Source of the DNA: Anaerolineae bacterium
Lineage (GTDB): Bacteria > Chloroflexota > Anaerolineae > Aggregatilineales > Phototrophicaceae
DNA: 23,119 nucleotides
NCBI GenBank assembly: GCA_030950085.1
Contig: JAUZRW010000118.1
Span: 1 to 23,119, forward strand
Reading direction: 5' to 3'
The notes below the pieces were generated by a model. The model was not told where the DNA came from and did not search any database. It saw only the letters and a list, made by a program, of their open reading frames with translations. This document shows positions 1-22,885 of the stretch, piece by piece (position 1 is the stretch's first letter; every line of letters begins with the position of its first letter). The translations under genes were made by a program, and so were the position numbers.

Positions 1-3000
1 ATGGCAAAAGACCCCAAAGACCGCTACGACACGGCAATGCAATTAGCCGATGCCTTATCAGAATTAGTCGATGCTAAAGAAGCCACATCCACACCGGAAA
101 ATATCCGTACTGTGGCTGTGCGAGCGATTAATCGTATTCAAGCCAAACGTGACAAAAAAGATATTGAAGGCTTACTGGGTAAGTTTGAAAAGACGCGCAG
201 TACGGGGATGCGTGCGGCAACGAGTTTTAGTGAAACGCAAGATATCGAAACGGAGGTTGTCGATACCCCATCTAAAGTAGAGATTGAAACGCCATCGGGC
301 AGTTTACGCTTACCGCTCATGATGGTGGGTGTTATTGCCGCTTTAATAATTGCAGTTGTATTTTTCTTTAATAATCAGAATCAACAGACTCAGGCAACAG
401 AAACGGCAGCCGCAGCCACAAGAGAACAAGTGACTATTGACGCTCAAACCGCGCTTGATGAAGCGGCGACGCAGGAGGCTCTTGATGCGACAACAGATGT
501 GATACAAGAGACAATCACAGCGCGAGGTGATGTTACAGATACACCGCAACCTACTTTCACCTCATCGCCTGTACCACCAACCCCTTCTACACCTTTAGCG
601 CAAGCACGAGAAAATTTAGAAGTGCGGCAAGGTCCCGGTCTCTCGTTTGATTTAGTCAGAAGTTTTGACCAAATATTTGCCGGTGAAGAGGTCGGTATTA
701 TCGGCATTAGCACCGGGGGCAGTTGGTATCAAGTCCGCCTCCCCGATGGCTCATCCGGCTGGATACCCAGTTCGCGCACTTTCGTCTTGGCAAGGGGACC
801 ATTAGATAGTATTGAGGTAGCAGTTGCTCCAACTTTGACAGCAACCAAAACACCAACAGCGACTCGCACAGCGACGAATACGCCGACTTCGACCAATACA
901 CCGACAGCGACTCGTACACCAACATCTACAAAGACCGATACGCCGACAAATACCTTTACACCAACGGCAACCGACACTTTCACACCAACAGCGACGAATA
1001 CGCCGACTGATACACCCACGAGAACACCGCGCCCAAGCAATACGCCAAGTGATACTCCTACATCAACATTGACCTTTACACCGCGTCCAAGCAATACACC
1101 CACCGCGACAGCGACGCATACCCCTACCGATACGCCAACATTTACAGCGACAGCAACTGATACGCCAACGGATACGCCGACACCCACACCGTCGCATACA
1201 TCCACACAGACAGCAACAGCAACGAACACGGCGACCAATACCGCGACCAACACGCCCACCGCGACCTTTACACCATCGAATACACCAACAGATACGCCGA
1301 CGGCAACGAACACAGCGACAGAGACAGCCACGAACACGTCAACCGCGACCTTTACACCATCACCCACGCCGACGGCAACCAATACGCCTACCGCGACGTT
1401 GACTCCGTCATTGACACCCACTGCAACAGCGACCAATACGCCGATGCCGTCACCAACACCTATTCCGGCGGGACGTTTGCCATATGTGATGGATTTTGAA
1501 GATGATTTCCCACTAGAAGGTTCAGATTATGACCCATCGGTCTGGCAGGTCGTAAACGAAGGGGGACAGCAGGTACTCATCGGGCAAGCGCGGTTAGAAC
1601 AACCTCTTGTTCTACTAGGACGAGAACAACCGGAATGGGCTGAAGCCAGTACCAGTGATTTTGTAGTCAGTTTCCGTTTCAATCTGGAAGCTGCCGAAGG
1701 GACACGCCTCGTCTTCCGCTTCAATGAAGGCGTTGGCTATAATGTGCTAGAAGTTGTACCGGGGCGGATTTTGCTCAAGCGAAATGTGGCGAGTGTCAAC
1801 CCCTTGACTGACCGCATCAATGAAATTATTCAGCAAAACCTGAGTGCCAATATCCAACTTGGACAGTGGAATCAAATTACATTGTGGGTCGAAGGGCAAC
1901 GTATTTTTGTCTACCTTAATGATGATTTACTCCTGCGGCATGTTGATACCATTTTACCGCAATTAGAGTCCGGTCAAATCTTACTACAAACAGGCAATGC
2001 TTTCCGTCCTGTTCGTTTTGATGATATCACTATCCAACGAGCAGAACCGGGCAGTGACCATTTCGAGACTGCCGATTTGCCCTCATCAACATGGCAACGC
2101 AGTGATAGCCGCAGAGTGACGATTGAACGCGATGCCGATAATAATCAGTATGTGCAAATGCAAACTGACGAGACAGCACAACCCATTATGGCACCTGTCC
2201 GCGATATTCAATTGGCGTGCCGCATCTGGAGTGTCGAAGGTGGTTATACGCTCTACCTGCGCGAAAGTGCCGGAGGTGGCGCGATTCGCATGGTGATGGA
2301 GGCTGGTGAAGCGACTGTGGCTTATGTGGATGCAGCAGGTGAATCTGTTTGGGAACAGCGCATTCGTAATTTCTATACCCGTCTGCAATGGCAAGATTTG
2401 AATATCCGCATTATTGAAGACAATATCGAAATCTATCTCGATGGCAACCTTGAATTTGAAGATACCCTCGACACACCGCCTGCTGGAGTCATTCGCTTTG
2501 AAACCGATTTTAACGATGTGCTGCGTTTTGATGATTGCTTAATCACACAATCTGCCAATGCCAGCGATGTTGGCGCAGCTTTTGCCTTTGACCTCATCCA
2601 ACAAGTCAATGACCGTACCTTCCGTTATCTGCGGAGTGACCTTGATGAGACATTCGATGATATTTTCCGTACCGATGTATGGTGGGTCGATGGTGAAAAT
2701 GCTGATGGGCAATTCCGCGATGATGCCGAAGCTGTCACCAATCAGAATTTCTTACGCATGGTACATGATGGCGAACCAACTTTCCGCCTCTTCCGCGATG
2801 ATGTCGGCGTATCAATATTTGGCGCTGGCACAGACACGAGCAATTTCAGCGATGCAACGGATTTGTTTGTCACGGTTGAAACGCGCTTCTTGCCCAATGA
2901 GGTTGGCGAGGCATGGCTAGGGATTCGCACGACAGAAACTCTGACAGGCACGAATATCAATGGCTACCGTCTCAGCTTGCGCCAAGACCGTGAAGGCAAT

Positions 3001-3276
3001 GTGACGGCGCTTGTCGATTATCGTAGTACATCGCAATTCGTGACCTACTTTGAAGGGGCAATCCCCGGTTCAGACATTGAGCCGCTACCAGAATGGATTA
3101 ATTTAAGCGTGGTGACATTCGAGGATAAACTAGCTTTCTTTGCTAATGGGCGTTTCCTAGTTTTTGTCGATAGTGCCGAGCAATTAGGTGGTACATTGGC
3201 ATTAGGCGTGGAAGAAGGGACAACAGCCGATTTCGACACCCTTATTATCCGCGATACAACCCCACACGGCGAATAA
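1..3276 (+). CDS. 5'-truncated CDS: C-terminal part of a membrane-spanning Ser/Thr protein kinase. The kinase-domain tail is followed by one TM helix, an SH3b-like domain, a Thr/Pro-rich linker and three tandem LamG/DUF1080-like (concanavalin-like jelly-roll) domains.
   Basis: The ORF is open at the window start. The first residues ([18 protein letters not shown]) match the conserved C-terminal end of Hanks-type kinase domains. A hydrophobic stretch [20 protein letters not shown] lies at nt ~310-370. [25 protein letters not shown] looks like a bacterial SH3 domain. [10 protein letters not shown]-type linker follows. Three repeated modules carry the motifs [13 protein letters not shown] / [20 protein letters not shown] / [14 protein letters not shown], typical of DUF1080/LamG-like beta-sandwiches. 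Domain names are inferred from memory of family motifs. Confidence 0.8.
835..1470 (+). repeat. Low-complexity coding repeat: Thr/Pro-rich linker (degenerate TPTxTxTPT units) inside the kinase gene.
   Basis: About 210 codons are dominated by ACN/CCN codons (T, P, A, N, S). The antisense frame yields an artefactual VGV-rich ORF at 729..1436. Confidence 0.85.
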
Positions 3277-3409
3277 CCCCTTGCGAGGTTTTATGATGAA
3301 CCATAGAGGCACAAAGGACACAGAGAATCAAGGTAAAAACCTTTCTTTGCGCCTTTCACCCTTTGCATCTTTGCGTTACGCATTTTCTAATCGCTTATCG
3401 GACTCTACA

Positions 3410-4318
3410 TTAAGGTGTGACCATCGCAGCCAATTTACCCAAAGCCTCAACCAGCACATCAACTGCAATCGGTTTTGCAATGAACCAATCCACGCCGCGT
3501 TGATAGGCTTGTCCTTCACGATATCCTCCAGAATCGTTGCCCATAGCAATGATAGGAACAGTTTTTTCGGCATTTTGCTGGCGAACATATTGAACCAAGT
3601 CCAAGCCACTGCCTTCTTGCAACATTGCCTCGACAACGACACCATCAATTGCTTGGGTATCTATAGCGGTGATTGCCTCTTGCAATGTATGAACAACCAC
3701 AGGTTCAAATCCAGAGCGTTTACTGACAAAGCGCAATATCCGACACACATCTTTGTTATCATCTAAAATGAGCAATTGTTGACCTTGTGCGACACGAGGC
3801 AGAAATACATCATTGCCGAAACCGTGCATCGTTCTATCGTCTATGGAGGGCTTAACAACAAAATGAACTTGCAACTTGAGATTCCCTAGTTGCAAAATAT
3901 CACCTTCGCGCACACGGTAGGGACGGCGTATTTTAAGTTGTTGCCCGTTGATATAGGTGCCATTCGCACTGCCCATATCTTCAATAGTGACACGATTATC
4001 ACGAGCTATCATCAAAGCATGTTTACGAGAAACACCTAACTTTTGCCCCAGATGTTTGCCCAAATCGACTTGAGGATAAACTTGATGATTTTCATCTAAT
4101 CGCCCGAATAACAAAGTCTCACTTACCGGCGCACGAATAATATCCGGCGTACCAACAATCCGAAACTCAATTACCCAAGGGACAACCTCTTCATAGTCAC
4201 TTCCCTCACCTTGTCGTGCTTGTGCTTCTGCAAGGATATCTTCTTCTAAGTCTTCAATCGCGCCAGCTAGATTACGTGTGCGATTATCTAAATCATTGTC
4301 AAAATCTTGTTCTGGCAT
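3410..4318 (-). CDS. FHA-domain protein fused to a CheY-like receiver domain, with no output domain. The phospho-acceptor position appears to be Glu rather than Asp.
   Basis: The FHA signature GRLDEN...VSRKHALMI...DMGSANGTYINGQQL spans residues ~68-150. The receiver domain spans residues ~181-295: LLILDDNKD (acidic pair), GVVVE at the beta3 end, and AKP (the conserved Lys-Pro). It is convergent with the kinase gene, 133 nt away. Confidence 0.85.
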   Translation of the reverse strand: MPEQDFDNDLDNRTRNLAGAIEDLEEDILAEAQARQGEGSDYEEVVPWVIEFRIVGTPDIIRAPVSETLLFGRLDENHQVYPQVDLGKHLGQKLGVSRKHALMIARDNRVTIEDMGSANGTYINGQQLKIRRPYRVREGDILQLGNLKLQVHFVVKPSIDDRTMHGFGNDVFLPRVAQGQQLLILDDNKDVCRILRFVSKRSGFEPVVVHTLQEAITAIDTQAIDGVVVEAMLQEGSGLDLVQYVRQQNAEKTVPIIAMGNDSGGYREGQAYQRGVDWFIAKPIAVDVLVEALGKLAAMVTP

Positions 4319-5677: not shown

Positions 5678-5875
5678 TATTGACTCCTATCAAATATTCT
5701 CTATTAATCTAACGAGCATTAGATTAAGTATAGCACGAATTTTTCAATCAGGCACAGACAGAACAGATGGTGTATCCATTTGTGTTTTCGATCATAGTGG
5801 GTGAACTATGTTAATTACTCACCTTACGCAAAGAATATAGTTATAGTACATCACCAAAAAAGTTTTTAAGGTTTC

Positions 5876-5900
5876 GTAGGGGCGACAGCGTGCTGCGCCC
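5876..5900 (+). repeat. GTAGGGG-hairpin dispersed repeat (variant copy).
   Basis: gtaggggcgacagcgtgctgcgccc folds as a GGGCG(A)CAG / CTGCGCCC stem. It shares GTAGGGGCG...GCGCCC with the copies at 13050, 18387 and 21887. Confidence 0.6.
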
Positions 5901-6087
5901 AATCTTCAAGAATTAAATTGGTCAAGTAATAGGTTTACAATGTCATGTCGAGTAAATCATTTCAGCAGTTCAGCCAATCAGCGAAGGGATAAGGCGCTAA
6001 AATAAGCTGAAGTGCTGACAAGCTGAATAGCTAAAAATCTCAATATCATGACTAGCATCATATTTTGTGATTTCTGCGTAACATCAG

Positions 6088-18308: not shown

Positions 18309-18384
18309 TACCCTTTATGGGGGTGTATTTCAAGTTGGCACAAAATCTAAAACGACCCTATTTCGTCTAAAAACAACCGTCTTT

Positions 18385-18430
18385 GATATAGGGGCGTACC
18401 CACGTGTGCGCCTGTTGTGGATAATCACGG
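18385..18430 (+). repeat. GTAGGGG-hairpin element copy (partial or degenerate tail).
   Basis: tataggggcgtacccacgtgtgcgcc has a hairpin core identical to 21889-21913. It lies 77 nt after the stop at 18308. It is followed by the atatggggcat motif (18437-18447), which also occurs at 20948. Confidence 0.6.
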
Positions 18431-18541: not shown

Positions 18542-18614
18542 TGGGAAGTAGCTCAACCGGCAGAGCAGGTGCCTTTGGAGCACAAGGTTGTAGGTTCAAG
18601 TCCTACCTTCCCAG
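18542..18614 (+). tRNA. tRNA-Gln (anticodon TTG).
   Basis: Acceptor stem UGGGAAG/CUUCCCA with the U1-A72 pair and G73 discriminator characteristic of bacterial tRNA-Gln. D arm GCUC-AACCGGCA-GAGC. Anticodon loop CUUUGGA. T arm GUAGG-UUCAAGU-CCUAC. There is one G-A mismatch at the top of the anticodon stem. Confidence 0.8.
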
Positions 18615-18622
18615 CTAAACAA

Positions 18623-18687: not shown

Positions 18688-18779
18688 CTTGTTTAACAAA
18701 CTATCCTTGTTGAACTTATAGCCTCTATCGCATATTGCAATTTTGTGTGAGGCGAGGTGAAACCCCGAAAGGGGCTTAT
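18688..18779 (+). repeat. Dispersed structured element, family 1, copy B.
   Basis: cttgtttaacaaact...attttgtgtgaggcgaggtgaaaccccgaaaggggcttat. Hairpin 1 is CGCATA...TGTGAG and hairpin 2 is CCCC-GAAA-GGGG. Confidence 0.7.
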
Positions 18780-18826
18780 TTTCAAATACTTTATCCGACA
18801 TTAGCAGAAATAACCTGACGCTCAGG

Positions 18827-21203: not shown

Positions 21204-21854
21204 TTGGATATTACATGGTATGGATTAAGTTGTTTTCGTCTGATAGAGCGTGGGCAAACAACTGTCGTGACAGACCCTTATAGTGAATCAATTGGCTTGC
21301 CGATTCCCAATCTAAAAGGAGATGTGGTCACGGTGAGTCATGATGAGGCGGGACATAATGGTATTAATCATGTGAAGAATTATGAGCATATCCTCAGTGG
21401 ACCGGGTGAATATGAAATTGGGGGTGTCTTCATCACAGGATTAGCGATGCACCATATTGATAATGAACAAGAAATTTATCGGCGGAATGTCTCTTACCTG
21501 ATAAAGTATCCCTCCGATTTAACTGTTTTGCATCTTGGCGATTTATCACATATTCCAGACCAATCGACTATCGAAGGTTTAGGAGAAGTCCATGTGGCAC
21601 TTGTCCCTGTTGGCGGTGGAAACACCCTCTCGGCAGCGATGGCGGCGGAAGTTATCGCCCTGATAGAACCCAATTATATTGTCCCCATGCACTATGCGAT
21701 GGAAGGGCTTAACCTTCAACTAGATACTGTGGATAAATTTTTGAAGGCGATGGGGGTCAGTCGCGTTCAAGAAGATGAGACATTGCGCGTCTTATCGAGC
21801 AGTTTGCCAGAACAACCGGAAGTGGTCGTTCTATTACCGCAAATTGGCGATTAA
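21204..21854 (+). CDS. MBL-fold metallo-hydrolase (UPF0173/Lactamase_B_3-like).
   Basis: 216 aa. The MDITWYGLSCFRLIE N-terminus and SHDEAGHNG (the H-x-H-x-D-H-like region) resemble that family. The start is probably a TTG, with a GAGG SD 8 nt upstream. Confidence 0.7.
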   Translation: MDITWYGLSCFRLIERGQTTVVTDPYSESIGLPIPNLKGDVVTVSHDEAGHNGINHVKNYEHILSGPGEYEIGGVFITGLAMHHIDNEQEIYRRNVSYLIKYPSDLTVLHLGDLSHIPDQSTIEGLGEVHVALVPVGGGNTLSAAMAAEVIALIEPNYIVPMHYAMEGLNLQLDTVDKFLKAMGVSRVQEDETLRVLSSSLPEQPEVVVLLPQIGD

Positions 21855-21886
21855 ATACGAAGCAGTGACACACTTTAGCCCAAAAA

Positions 21887-22035
21887 CTGTAGGGGCGTAC
21901 CCACGTGTGCGCCCGAAAATCACAGTCAATAGTGTAAGTCCTAATAAGCCCCTTTCGGGGTTTCGCCGCGCCTCACACAAAATGGCAATGTGAGACCGAT
22001 GTTAGAGGGTTATCAGAGATAGTTTGTTAAACAAG
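21887..22035. repeat. Composite repeat. A complete GTAGGGG-hairpin element (21887-21944, + orientation) is fused to a family-1 structured element (21945-22035, - orientation). Together they fill the whole intergenic space.
   Basis: ctgtaggggcgtacccacgtgtgcgcccgaaaatcacagtcaatagtgtaagtcctaa is followed by the reverse complement of cttgtttaacaaact...ggcgcggcgaaaccccgaaaggggctta. The same junction order (family-1 3' end, then the hairpin element in reverse complement) is seen in partial form at 22726-22757. Confidence 0.75.
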
Positions 22036-22042
22036 GAATATC

Positions 22043-22354
22043 ATGAGTTATACATTAATCATGACATGGGATATCAAGCCCGATATGGAAGCAGATTACT
22101 ATGAGTTTGTCATTCGAGAGTGGGTGCCTGTCACGAATAAACTCGGCTTGCAAATGGTTGCGGCATGGTATACGCAATACAGCCTCGATAAGACTGTACC
22201 TATTATTCGCGCTGAGGGGATTACGGAAGATTTAAGCACGATGCGCGGCATCCTCAATAGTGCGGATTGGGAAGATATACACATTAAATTGATGGATTAC
22301 GTGGAAAATTATTCGCATAAAGTGGTTGAAACCACAGGTGATTTTCGCATGTGA
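22043..22354 (+). CDS. Small hypothetical protein (103 aa), possibly a ferredoxin-like alpha+beta fold.
   Basis: An ATG preceded by AAGGA (5 nt). It is conserved-looking and non-repetitive, but I recognise no family with confidence. Confidence 0.55.
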   Translation: MSYTLIMTWDIKPDMEADYYEFVIREWVPVTNKLGLQMVAAWYTQYSLDKTVPIIRAEGITEDLSTMRGILNSADWEDIHIKLMDYVENYSHKVVETTGDFRM

Positions 22355-22504
22355 TGCACAATAAACTTTCGGTTTTGTAGTGGCGCGATGTATCATGCCG
22401 CTACGACGGAATTCTAAAAATATAAAGGTTGCTTGTTTAGGAACAGAAATTAAATAACTCTAGCAATCGTTGTTCCAACAGTTTGGGAATAAGCGTGAAA
22501 AGTT

Positions 22505-22571
22505 ATCAGTTTTTAGTCATCAGTTGTCAGAAAAACAATTATCCTGAACTGAAAACTGTGAACTGACAACT
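22505..22571. promoter_or_regulatory. CAGTT/AACTG-rich segment with a perfect 9-bp inverted repeat AGTTGTCAG...CTGACAACT (32-nt spacer).
   Basis: The arms are at 22522-22530 and 22563-22571. Additional CAGTT/AACTG units occur at 22507, 22521, 22546 and 22556. The segment contains ACTGTGAA. Confidence 0.4.
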
Positions 22572-22636
22572 ATAAATCGGGTAACTTCTGCAAATTACCG
22601 AATTCATTGAAATGTTGGGCTTATTTAATCTTCAAT

Positions 22637-22757
22637 CCTTAACAAACTTTCTGCGATAATGCTCTAACACTTATCTCACAATGTTATTTTGTGTGAGGCG
22701 CGGTGAAACCCCGAAAGGGGCTTACATAATTGATTGTGATTTTCGGGCGTACACACC
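22637..22757 (+). repeat. Dispersed structured element, family 1, copy D (5' end truncated to CCTTAACAAACT), plus a partial reverse-complement GTAGGGG-hairpin module.
   Basis: ccttaacaaactttctgcgataatgctctaac...ctcacaatgttattttgtgtgaggcgcggtgaaaccccgaaaggggcttac, then ttgattgtgattttcgggcgtacacacc. The latter is the reverse complement of the hairpin element's ggtgtgtacgcccgaaaatcacaatcaa. Confidence 0.7.
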
Positions 22758-22885
22758 AGTAATCTCTACGATTTCTAGGCTCAGATGCCCCAATTTCAAA
22801 ACTCATTGGAACTTTTTGCCCCTAACATTCATCTACATCAGTGAGAACTTCTGATTAAAGAGATTGATCGGTGATGGAGGAGAAC

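What the first reader, a model, noticed from the sequence alone, without database searches (positions are those of the whole stretch)
21887..22035. Two repeat families found fused head-to-tail, suggesting a modular composite element
At 21887-22035 a full GTAGGGG-hairpin element is joined directly to a family-1 structured element in the opposite orientation. The same junction occurs at 22726-22757 with the hairpin module truncated. At 13027-13107 the hairpin module stands alone with its own 9-bp TIRs, and at 11833-11855 only its TTAGGACTTAC tail is present, 100 nt upstream of a family-1 copy.

This looks like a two-module mobile element that can occur whole or in parts, which is typical of MITE evolution, or like a bipartite RNA. 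In this copy the composite element fills the whole intergenic region and supplies the RBS (AAGGA) of the downstream gene at 22043.
Basis: seen in the sequence. Interest (0 to 1): 0.55.

Follow-up and report, generated by a model that had tools for sequence, protein, structure and literature searches.

The report
MITE inserted beside an orphan repeat
The "fused two-module element" is a decaying miniature transposon of the IS701 family, carrying a REP-type hairpin, that lies directly against an unrelated short repeat of unknown nature in an Anaerolineae genome; this is ordinary intergenic mobile-DNA debris, not a new bipartite element.

Summary
The sequence observation holds. Two repeat families abut at 21860-22035, and the same junction recurs, inverted, at 22634-22795.

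The hairpin family (F2) is now identified. The intact copy (13023-13106) has 15-nt terminal inverted repeats, TAGGACTTACGCAG, flanked by a 5-bp target duplication, AATCT. These ends match IS701-family insertion sequences (a Spirosoma plasmid IS, 13/13; published ISPlag1 ends). They resemble (12/14) a 1.06-kb IS701-family IS with 5-bp duplications that is insertion-polymorphic in the sister assembly of this genome. F2 is therefore a MITE.

Its core (GTAG plus a GC-rich hairpin) has the form of a REP. Near-identical hairpins occur in many phyla, and in one Omnitrophota locus they flank a RAYT gene.

The other family (F1, 92 nt, four copies) has no inverted ends, no target duplications, and no relative in any collection or in Rfam. 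It remains unexplained.

F1 and F2 also occur apart. A roughly 90%-identical relative lacks both at this site yet keeps the same ribosome-binding site, so the element does not supply it.

Best reading: side-by-side or nested insertion, with the junction later copied, not one two-module element or RNA. New member of known kinds; modest interest.

The parts
21860..21943 (+). F2b: copy of the IS701-type MITE that forms the left half of the reported composite. The right inverted repeat is intact (..AGTGTAAGTCCTA); the left one is decayed (AAGCAGTGACACACT).
   Evidence: nhmmer hit over F2 model positions 1-86, E=3e-27. Alignment A2. 78% identical to F2a. The ssDNA fold is no longer exceptional, z=-1.15. 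The flanking pentamers ATACG (21855-21859) and ATAAG (21944-21948) match 4/5.
21889..21914 (+). REP-type core of F2b: GTAG tag followed by an 8-bp GC-rich stem (one G.T pair) and a 6-nt loop, then GAAAA.
   Evidence: Read from the sequence. The pattern TAGGGGC-N8-24-GCGCC gives 4 hits against 0.03 expected. The same hairpin class is found in at least 99 loci of many phyla and flanks a RAYT gene in L076.
21944..22035 (-). F1d: orphan 92-nt repeat, inverted. It fills the rest of the spacer up to the native RBS of the 103-aa gene (ATG at 22043).
   Evidence: nhmmer E=2e-31. Alignments A1/A3. Absent from the orthologous spacer of L002. In the sister assembly an IS66 copy is inserted inside it at 22026-22033.
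22634..22724 (+). F1c: orphan repeat, 280 nt downstream of the 103-aa gene. It forms a 97-nt inverted pair with F1d.
   Evidence: the repeat finder I1, 81% complementary. nhmmer E=2e-29.
22722..22795 (-). F2c: strongly decayed F2 copy abutting F1c at the same junction, with a 10-nt junction deletion and a ruined hairpin.
   Evidence: nhmmer over model positions 10-81, E=1e-9. Pairwise alignments show that the 3' half shares derived bases with F2b (GAAAATCACA.TCAAT..TGTAAG). Fold z=-0.45.
13018..13111 (+). F2a: intact MITE (13023-13106) with 15-nt inverted ends TAGAAGTTACGCAGT / ACTGCGTAAGTCCTA and a 5-bp target-site duplication AATCT (13018-13022 and 13107-13111). It lies a few bases 3' of the stop codon of the 309-aa gene.
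   Evidence: Sequence. End table. ssDNA fold z=-3.7. Present in both assemblies.
11828..11848 (-). Solo right-end fragment of F2 (TTAGGACTTACGCGGTTGACT), 108 nt upstream of F1a.
   Evidence: the repeat finder I7/I14. Fuzzy search for the inverted end.
18354..18430 (+). F2d: partial F2 without inverted ends. Its hairpin is 24/24 identical to that of F2b, but the tag is ATAG. It lies upstream of tRNA-Gln.
   Evidence: the repeat finder D7. nhmmer over model positions 7-65, E=5e-7.
11956..12047 (+). F1a: solo F1 copy, 39 nt upstream of the 309-aa choice-of-anchor-R gene.
18688..18779 (+). F1b: solo F1 copy, just after the tRNA-Gln terminator. In the sister assembly an IS66 copy sits 1 nt past its end (TSD 18781-18788).
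5844..5931 (+). F3: a different unit bounded by inverted repeats (TAGTACATCACCAA / TTGGTCAAGTAATA) that also has a GTAG hairpin at its centre. Related context, not part of the composite.
   Evidence: Copies in L004 and L005.

Best explanation
The reported composite is two separate kinds of small non-coding repeat lying side by side in a repeat-rich stretch of an Anaerolineae chromosome.

Module F2 is a MITE of the IS701 family (ISAba11/ISPlag1-like subgroup).
- It is 84 nt long, with ends TAGGACTTACGCAG, and makes a 5-bp target duplication on insertion.
- By inference it is moved in trans by a DDE transposase, such as that of the 1.06-kb IS701-family IS found in the sister assembly of this genome.
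- At its centre it carries a REP-type hairpin (GTAG tag plus GC-rich stem). This element class is widespread across phyla and is elsewhere associated with RAYT tyrosine transposases.

Module F1 is an unrelated, lineage-restricted 92-nt repeat with asymmetric ends. Its own mode of spread is unknown.

The junction arose when F2 landed at the very end of an F1 copy, or the reverse. It was later duplicated, or re-created by a site preference, in inverted orientation on the other side of the 103-aa gene. Both composite copies have since decayed.

Shown: the ends, the target duplication of F2a, the match to IS701-family ends, the polymorphic resident IS, absence of both modules in a relative, and the native RBS.
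Inferred: trans-mobilisation, the order of insertions, and any RAYT involvement.
For: 1. F2a has 15-nt inverted ends and an exact 5-bp duplication AATCT.
2. The same ends bound IS701-family ISs:
   - Spirosoma plasmid IS, TAGGACTTACGCA/TGCGTAAGTCCTA, 13/13, TSD TATAT.
   - ISPlag1, CAGGACTTACGCA.., TSD TTCAA.
   - An A. baumannii plasmid IS, TTAGGACTTACGCA.
   - Published ISPlag1 ends (PMC2464740).
3. The sister assembly holds an IS with ends TAGGACTTTCGCTT (12/14 to F2) and TSD ATAAT.
   - Its 317-aa transposase scores 350 bits against NCBIfam NF049921 'IS701 family transposase', above the cut-off of 250.
   - A second copy interrupts a gene that is intact in the window, so the IS moved recently.
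4. MITEs with the same ends and 5-6-bp duplications enclose REP dimers in two Armatimonadota genomes. Another such MITE lies in a different Anaerolineae MAG.
5. The hairpin fits the GTAG-REP definition of Di Nocera et al. 2013 (PMC3733652).
   - It matches at least 99 loci in many phyla, often as inverted doublets.
   - It flanks a Y1_Tnp/RAYT gene in L076.
   - Both full F2 copies start a few bases (5-7 nt) after a stop codon, as that paper describes for REPs.
6. F1 and F2 occur apart: F1a, F1b, F2a and F2d.
7. L002 lacks both modules at the orthologous spacer.
Against: - The resident IS ends differ from F2's at 2 of 14 positions, and no IS with exact F2 ends was seen in this genome. Only about 63 kb of it could be read.
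- Only F2a has a clean duplication. F2b's is 4/5, and its left pentamer also resembles the native flank in L002 (ATGCG), so the order of insertion is not settled.
- L002 is not a clean empty site: 62 nt of unrelated sequence replace about 172 nt.
- The same junction occurring twice, and the derived bases shared by F2b and F2c, would also fit a composite that once moved as a unit.
- No RAYT gene was found in the sampled DNA of this genome, so calling the core a REP rests on its form and on other phyla.
- F1 is not explained.
Confidence: 0.68

Rival explanations
1. One modular composite mobile element (F2+F1) that transposes as a unit and sheds modules over time.
For: - The identical junction occurs twice in inverted orientation around the 103-aa gene.
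- F2b and F2c share derived substitutions in their 3' halves.
- The 10-nt difference between the junctions is a simple deletion between short repeats.
Against: - The IS701-type ends and the 5-bp duplication enclose F2 alone.
- F1 has no inverted ends, and the composite has no terminal repeats or duplication of its own.
- F1a and F1b stand alone, as do F2a and F2d.
- F1c and F1d are no closer to each other (85%) than F1a is to F1d (87%).
- F2-type elements in other phyla never carry F1: no hit in 730 kb of loci.
Confidence: 0.12
2. F1, alone or together with F2, is a structured non-coding RNA: a small RNA gene family or a cis-regulatory leader. The repeats are then paralogous RNA genes.
For: - On the '+' strand of F1, 95.6% of cells in a three-helix consensus are paired.
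- All stem variation is C/U opposite G.
- One hairpin has a GAAA tetraloop.
- The 3' 45 nt are almost invariant.
Against: - There is no Rfam match even at E<=10.
- Covariation is not above shuffles (117/500) and there is a single compensatory pair.
- Fold stability is unremarkable for two of four copies, z about 0 and -1.
- Orientation to flanking genes is inconsistent: one of four copies is inverted directly before a start codon.
- No consistent promoter or terminator was found.
- A relative does without it.
Confidence: 0.1
3. F1 is itself a non-autonomous element moved as single-stranded DNA by an HUH/Y1 enzyme (IS200/IS605-like or RAYT-like). The pile-up would then reflect two transposition systems sharing safe intergenic sites.
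For: - F1 has asymmetric ends, no inverted repeats and no target duplications.
- Its hairpins are strand-specific and tolerate G.T pairs.
- REP-type hairpins are present in the same genome.
- The literature describes REPs adjoined to unrelated stem-loops in Pseudomonas (PMC3733652).
Against: - No conserved tetranucleotide lies at the left flank of the four copies.
- No Y1 transposase gene was found in the 63 kb sampled.
- All four copies lie within 11 kb, which fits local duplication equally well.
Confidence: 0.1

Closest known systems
MITEs derived from IS701-family insertion sequences (ISAba11 / ISPlag1 subgroup)
   Same: - The terminal inverted repeat core is AGGACTTACGCA.
- The target duplication is 5 bp.
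- The element is tiny and has no coding capacity.
- A full-length IS701-family IS occurs in the same genome.
- A remnant end fragment is present, as described for ISPlag1 remnants (PMC2464740).
   Different: - The resident IS ends differ at two positions (TTTCGCTT against TTACGCAG).
- The interior is not a deleted copy of that IS. It is a REP-type hairpin.
- Mobilisation was not tested.
GTAG-tagged REP / REPIN elements mobilised by RAYT (Nunvar 2010; Bertels and Rainey 2011; Di Nocera 2013)
   Same: - A GTAG tetranucleotide is followed by a GC-rich imperfect palindrome of about 22 nt.
- The copies are extragenic and sit just 3' of ORFs.
- G.T pairs occur in the stem.
- The same hairpin class forms inverted doublets and flanks a RAYT gene in other phyla.
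- REPs nested inside longer palindromes are described for Anabaena variabilis and Thermomicrobium roseum.
   Different: - The hairpins here are single, not doublets.
- Each is embedded in a DDE-type MITE.
- Copy number in this genome is unknown.
- No RAYT gene has been seen in this genome.
BIMEs of enterobacteria, BOX elements of pneumococci, and the REP-plus-stem-loop 'double inverted repeats' of Pseudomonas
   Same: They are mosaics in which a REP-like hairpin is joined to other short conserved motifs, occur in intergenic DNA, and are present whole or in parts.
   Different: - There is no regular alternation or fixed spacing here.
- Only two composite copies are known.
- One partner (F2) has its own DDE-type ends and target duplication, which points to nested insertion rather than a built-in mosaic.

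Membership tests
IS701-family MITE | Terminal inverted repeats matching those of autonomous family members | tested here: met
   - F2a ends are TAGAAGTTACGCAGT / TAGGACTTACGCAGT (reverse complement).
- Spirosoma IS: TAGGACTTACGCA on both ends.
- ISPlag1: CAGGACTTACGCA.
- A. baumannii plasmid IS: TTAGGACTTACGCA.
- Resident IS: TAGGACTTTCGCTT (12/14).

IS701-family MITE | Target-site duplication of the length made by the family (5 bp in this subgroup) | tested here: met
   - F2a: AATCT/AATCT.
- ISs: ATAAT, TATAT, TTCAA.
- MITEs in other phyla: AGAGT (L104) and CTCAAA (6 bp, L043).
- F2b: ATACG/ATAAG, only 4/5, inconclusive.
IS701-family MITE | Short, non-coding, more than one copy, with presence/absence differences between relatives | tested here: met
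   - The element is 84 nt.
- There are two full copies, two decayed copies and one end fragment.
- It is absent from the orthologous spacer in L002, although that spacer is replaced rather than cleanly empty.
IS701-family MITE | Autonomous partner encoding the transposase in the same genome | tested here: met
   - Two copies of a 1.06-kb IS lie in the sister assembly, which is 100% identical to the window outside IS insertions.
- Its transposase scores 350 bits against NF049921 (cut-off 250).
- One copy is absent from the window, so it is insertion-polymorphic.
- The match of its ends to F2 is imperfect.
IS701-family MITE | Actual mobilisation by that transposase | not testable with these tools
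   This needs a transposition or binding assay.
GTAG REP / REPIN-RAYT system | GTAG tag next to a GC-rich imperfect palindrome of 20-40 nt, extragenic | tested here: met
   Hairpins lie at 21889-21914 and 13052-13077, with a further one in F3 from about 5876 and an ATAG-tagged one from about 18388. All are intergenic.
GTAG REP / REPIN-RAYT system | High copy number in the genome | not testable with these tools
   Only about 63 kb of this genome could be read. It holds 7 hairpins: 4 in the window, 2 in L004 and 1 in L005.
GTAG REP / REPIN-RAYT system | A RAYT (Y1 transposase) gene flanked by the same REPs | tested here: inconclusive
   - No Y1 transposase was found in the sampled DNA of this genome.
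- In Omnitrophota locus L076 a 143-aa ORF is flanked on both sides by GTAGGGGCG..CGCCCGAAAA hairpins.
- That ORF scores 26.8 bits against PF01797 (cut-off 23) and 63 bits against NF047646 'REP-associated tyrosine transposase', below its cut-off of 80.
GTAG REP / REPIN-RAYT system | Inverted doublets (REPINs) | tested here: not met
   The hairpins in the window are single. Doublets are seen in other phyla (L027, L029, L043, L061, L089).
BIME-like mosaic | REPs in alternating orientation, regularly spaced by conserved non-REP motifs, recurring at many loci | tested here: not met
   Only two junctions exist, 690 nt apart, with a gene between them. F1 and F2 also occur alone.
Structured non-coding RNA family (F1) | Significant covariation supporting a conserved fold, or a match to a curated family | tested here: inconclusive
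   - There is no Rfam match.
- 95.6% of cells are paired, but 117/500 shuffles reach the observed value.
- There is one compensatory pair, from only four sequences.

The most novel reading that the evidence does not exclude
Two things are not excluded.

1. REP-type (GTAG) hairpins sit at the centre of DDE-type IS701 MITEs in at least two phyla (Chloroflexota and two Armatimonadota genomes), and at the centre of the unrelated F3 unit in this genome. This could reflect real cross-talk between two transposition systems. REPs might home to the tips of MITE palindromes, or IS701 MITEs might use REP hairpins as their stuffer.

2. F1 could be an undescribed, lineage-specific element or small RNA whose ends attract insertions. 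F2 and both strain-specific IS66 insertions land in it or within a base of it.
Probability: 0.2. Interest if true: 0.55.

Novelty: new member of a known kind. Interest (0 to 1): 0.3.

Why it matters
It mainly clears up an apparent oddity. What looked like a bipartite element is a miniature IS701-family transposon lying against another repeat.

It adds a Chloroflexota example of IS701-type MITEs. It also shows that the ends AGGACTTACGCA are conserved from Acinetobacter and cyanobacteria to Anaerolineae and Armatimonadota.

Two side observations could interest people who study bacterial repeats: REP hairpins nested in DDE-type MITEs in more than one phylum, and the orphan F1 repeat acting as a landing site. 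Neither is a major surprise. Nesting of REPs in palindromes and mosaics of repeats have been described since 2013 and earlier.

The locus has no evident consequence for the neighbouring genes. The ribosome-binding site of the 103-aa gene is ancestral.

Tried and rejected
- **Rfam.** The gathering threshold on the whole window gave only two tRNAs. The permissive search of 21840-22820 hit nothing on F1 or F2.
- **F1 core patterns in public collections.**
  - GTDB representative genomes: 0 hits.
  - JGI metagenomes, strict pattern: 0 hits.
  - JGI metagenomes, loosened pattern: 5 unrelated hits.
  - IMG/VR: 0 hits.
  - PLSDB by blastn: one weak 32-nt hit within F2 (E=0.5), nothing on F1.
- **nhmmer of F1.** No further copy was found in 730 kb of fetched loci or in about 40 kb of other DNA from the same genome.
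- **IS66 as the autonomous partner.** Its ends (GTAACTGCTCAGG, 8-bp duplication) do not match F2 or F1.
- **Sampling the genome through the IS66 transposase.** The best database hits were only 84% identical. Three extra contigs were reached instead through IS66 N-terminal fragments.
- **tRNA origin of the F2 tail.** It shares the 8-mer AAGTCCTA with the tRNA-Gln T-arm, which is at chance level for 23 kb.
- **Promoter or terminator role.** There are no consistent sigma-70-like sites in F1. The only terminator-like site in F2b is on the strand opposite to the upstream gene.
- **The 103-aa gene as cargo of an element bounded by the inverted F1 pair.** The relative L002 has the same gene pair without the upstream repeats.
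- **Clean empty site for F2b/F1d.** L002 has 62 nt of unrelated sequence there, so the exact insertion boundaries could not be read.

Full report
**Source and context**

- The window is a complete 23,119-nt contig of an 'Anaerolineae bacterium' MAG. Its proteins are MDQ70262xx with locus tags Q9P44_.
- G+C is about 46% and the genes are ordinary chromosomal ones.
- A sister assembly (GCA_030949545.1; loci L001, L114, L105) is 100% identical over the shared DNA except for IS insertions.
- A Logan contig (L002, run ERR13063753) comes from a relative about 90% identical in coding DNA.

**The observation**

Two repeat families are real.

- F1 is 92 nt: CTTGTTTAACAAACT...ATTTTGTGTGAGGCGCGGTGAAACCCCGAAAGGGGCTTAT.
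  - Copies lie at 11956-12047 (+), 18688-18779 (+), 22634-22724 (+) and 21944-22035 (-).
  - They are 80-88% identical to each other.
- F2 is 84 nt.
  - Full copies lie at 13023-13106 (+) and 21860-21943 (+).
  - A badly decayed copy lies at 22722-22795 (-).
  - A partial copy without ends lies at 18354-18430 (+).
  - A 21-nt end fragment lies at 11828-11848 (-).
- At 21943/21944 the right end of F2 touches the ATAAGCCCC end of an inverted F1.
- The same junction recurs at 22717-22730 with 10 nt deleted between short repeats.

Two details in the finding are wrong.

- The second hairpin module is not truncated. It is a degenerate copy of nearly full length, aligning to F2 model positions 10-81.
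- The element does not provide the ribosome-binding site. In L002 the same spacer is 83 nt, has neither module, and still reads CAAGGAAG just before the ATG.

**What F2 is**

The intact copy F2a reads AATCT|TAGAAGTTACGCAGT...ACTGCGTAAGTCCTA|AATCT. That is 15-nt inverted ends with an exact 5-bp direct duplication.

About 8 kb beyond the window's right end, the sister assembly carries a 1,058-bp IS.

- Its ends are TAGGACTTTCGCTT/AAGCGAAAGTCCTA and its duplication is ATAAT.
- It encodes a 317-aa DDE transposase.
- The transposase scores 350 bits against NCBIfam NF049921 'IS701 family transposase', above the cut-off of 250. It also matches Pfam DDE_5 and DDE_Tnp_1.
- A second copy of this IS interrupts the choice-of-anchor-R gene at about window position 12100 in the sister assembly only. 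The IS has therefore moved recently in this population.

tblastn of the transposase against PLSDB found 338 plasmid records. I read the ends of three of them.

| Record | Ends | Duplication |
|---|---|---|
| Spirosoma linguale pSLIN01 | TAGGACTTACGCA / TGCGTAAGTCCTA | TATAT |
| Planktothrix ISPlag1 | CAGGACTTACGCA.. | TTCAA |
| A. baumannii plasmid IS | TTAGGACTTACGCA.. | not clear |

The published ISPlag1 ends are CAGGACTTACGCAAGCACGCTATATATAG, and that IS was assigned to the IS701 group (PMC2464740). ISAba11, of the same family, transposes in experiments (PMC9771954).

F2 therefore has the ends and the target duplication of this IS701 subgroup and no coding capacity. It is a MITE. Small elements with the same ends and 5-6-bp duplications occur in two Armatimonadota genomes (L043 1820-1953; L104 212-405) and in another Anaerolineae MAG (L030).

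**The hairpin inside F2**

- The core GTAG-GGGCGTAC-CCACGT-GTGCGCCC-GAAAA has the defining form of a GTAG-tagged REP (PMC3733652).
  - Many hits are nearly identical hairpins (GTAGGGGCGCACCnnTGTGTGCGCCCGAAAA).
  - They occur in Bacillota, Bacteroidota, Omnitrophota, Armatimonadota, cyanobacteria and Chloroflexota.
  - Several genomes have multiple hits, and many hits form inverted doublets.
- In Omnitrophota locus L076 such hairpins flank both sides of a 143-aa ORF.
  - The ORF passes Pfam Y1_Tnp (26.8 bits, cut-off 23).
  - Its best NCBIfam match is 'REP-associated tyrosine transposase' (63 bits, below the cut-off of 80).
- In L043 and L104 the IS701-type ends enclose REP dimers. In the window they enclose a single hairpin.
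- A second, unrelated unit bounded by inverted repeats (F3: window 5844-5931; L004; L005) also has a GTAG hairpin at its centre.
- REPs nested in longer palindromes, and REPs joined to unrelated stem-loops, are described in the literature.
- Both full F2 copies start a few bases (5-7 nt) after a stop codon, the position that paper reports for REPs between co-directional genes.
- No Y1 transposase was found in the roughly 63 kb of this genome that I could read. For this genome the REP label therefore rests on form only.

**What F1 is**

This is unresolved.

- F1 has no inverted ends and no flanking duplications.
- It has no Rfam match.
- It has no relative in GTDB representative genomes, JGI metagenomes, IMG/VR, PLSDB or 730 kb of fetched loci.
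- No further copy was found in about 40 kb of other DNA from the same genome.
- Its 3' 45 nt are almost invariant, while the 5' half varies.
- On the '+' strand a three-helix consensus keeps 95.6% of cells paired. The variation is C/U opposite G, and one hairpin has a GAAA loop.
- With four related copies this is not significant: 117 of 500 shuffles reach the observed value. Single-sequence folds range from z=0 to z=-3.5.
- Orientation to flanking genes is inconsistent, and no promoter or terminator pattern is shared.

**How the composite arose**

- The IS701-type ends bracket F2 only, and F1 and F2 each occur alone. The composite is therefore best read as insertion of one element at the very edge of the other.
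- The pentamers flanking F2b (ATACG and ATAAG) match 4/5, and ATAAG is the conserved end of F1. This fits F2 inserting into the last 5 nt of F1.
- However, ATACG also resembles the native ATGCG in L002, so the order of insertion is open.
- F2b and F2c share derived bases in their 3' halves and the same junction. The junction was therefore either copied once as a segment or made twice by a site preference.
- Both composite copies have since decayed: fold z is -1.15 and -0.45, against -3.7 for F2a.
- Both IS66 insertions that distinguish the sister assembly also lie inside F1d or 1 nt beyond F1b. This may reflect only AT-rich targets.

**Verdict**

- The MITE idea is right for one module, and its autonomous partner family has been found.
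- The ideas of a two-module element and a bipartite RNA are not supported.
- This is a new member of known kinds (IS701-family MITE; GTAG REP) lying next to an orphan repeat.
- Interest is modest. The residual interest lies in the cross-phylum nesting of REP hairpins in DDE-type MITEs and in the unexplained F1.

Noticed in passing
window 18781-18788 and 22026-22033 (L001 3701-5219 and 8472-9984): The sister assembly carries two IS66-family copies that are absent from the window. Their ends are GTAACTGCTCAGG and their 8-bp duplications are TTCAAATA and GTTAAACA. One lies 1 nt past F1b and the other inside F1d. One copy has frameshifts.
   Followed up: partly
window ~12100 (L114 3494-4550); L001 18817-19874: A 1.06-kb IS701-family IS (ends TAGGACTTTCGCTT, 5-bp duplication) is present in two copies in the sister assembly. 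One copy truncates the choice-of-anchor-R gene that is intact in the window. Its left flank is unrelated DNA, so there is either an IS-mediated rearrangement or a chimeric contig. A different IS701-type IS (477-aa transposase, ends CCCTAGACTTTGGC) lies at L114 1383-2962.
   Followed up: partly
window 5844-5931; L004 2618-2760; L005 160-235: A third repeat family (F3) is bounded by inverted repeats TAGTACATCACCAA / TTGGTCAAGTA(C/A)TA and has a GTAG hairpin at its centre. Two variants lie in tandem in L004. No clear target duplication was seen.
   Followed up: partly
loci L006-L104 (GTDB representative genomes): Hairpins of the form GTAGGGGCGCACCnnTGTGTGCGCCCGAAAA are almost identical in distant phyla (gut Bacillota and Bacteroidota, Omnitrophota, Armatimonadota, cyanobacteria, Planctomycetota). 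They often occur as inverted doublets. In L076 they flank a RAYT-like gene (3213-3644).
   Followed up: partly
window 22489-22575: A long imperfect AT-rich hairpin with repeated CAGTT motifs lies between the 103-aa gene and F1c. Its only database echo is sub-threshold miRNA-model matches, which are surely chance.
   Followed up: no
window 830-1445: Thr/Pro-rich coding repeats with 6- and 12-nt periodicity (ACNCCNAC...) lie inside the large ORF 1-3276. That ORF has SH3_3 and 3-keto-disaccharide hydrolase domains.
   Followed up: no
window 11645-11729 and 18542-18615: tRNA-Ser(GGA) and tRNA-Gln(TTG), each with its own terminator hairpin, both sit in the spacers that also hold F1 and F2 pieces. 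The 8-mer AAGTCCTA is shared by the tRNA-Gln T-arm and the F2 end, which is at chance level.
   Followed up: partly
L104 270-345 and L037 300-365: In two Armatimonadota genomes a further conserved module (..ACCG.CATAATGGGTCA.CAA.CCGTA.AAGGGGCTT.AGC.CCGAA..) is attached to the REP dimer. This is another example of mosaic build-up around REPs.
   Followed up: no
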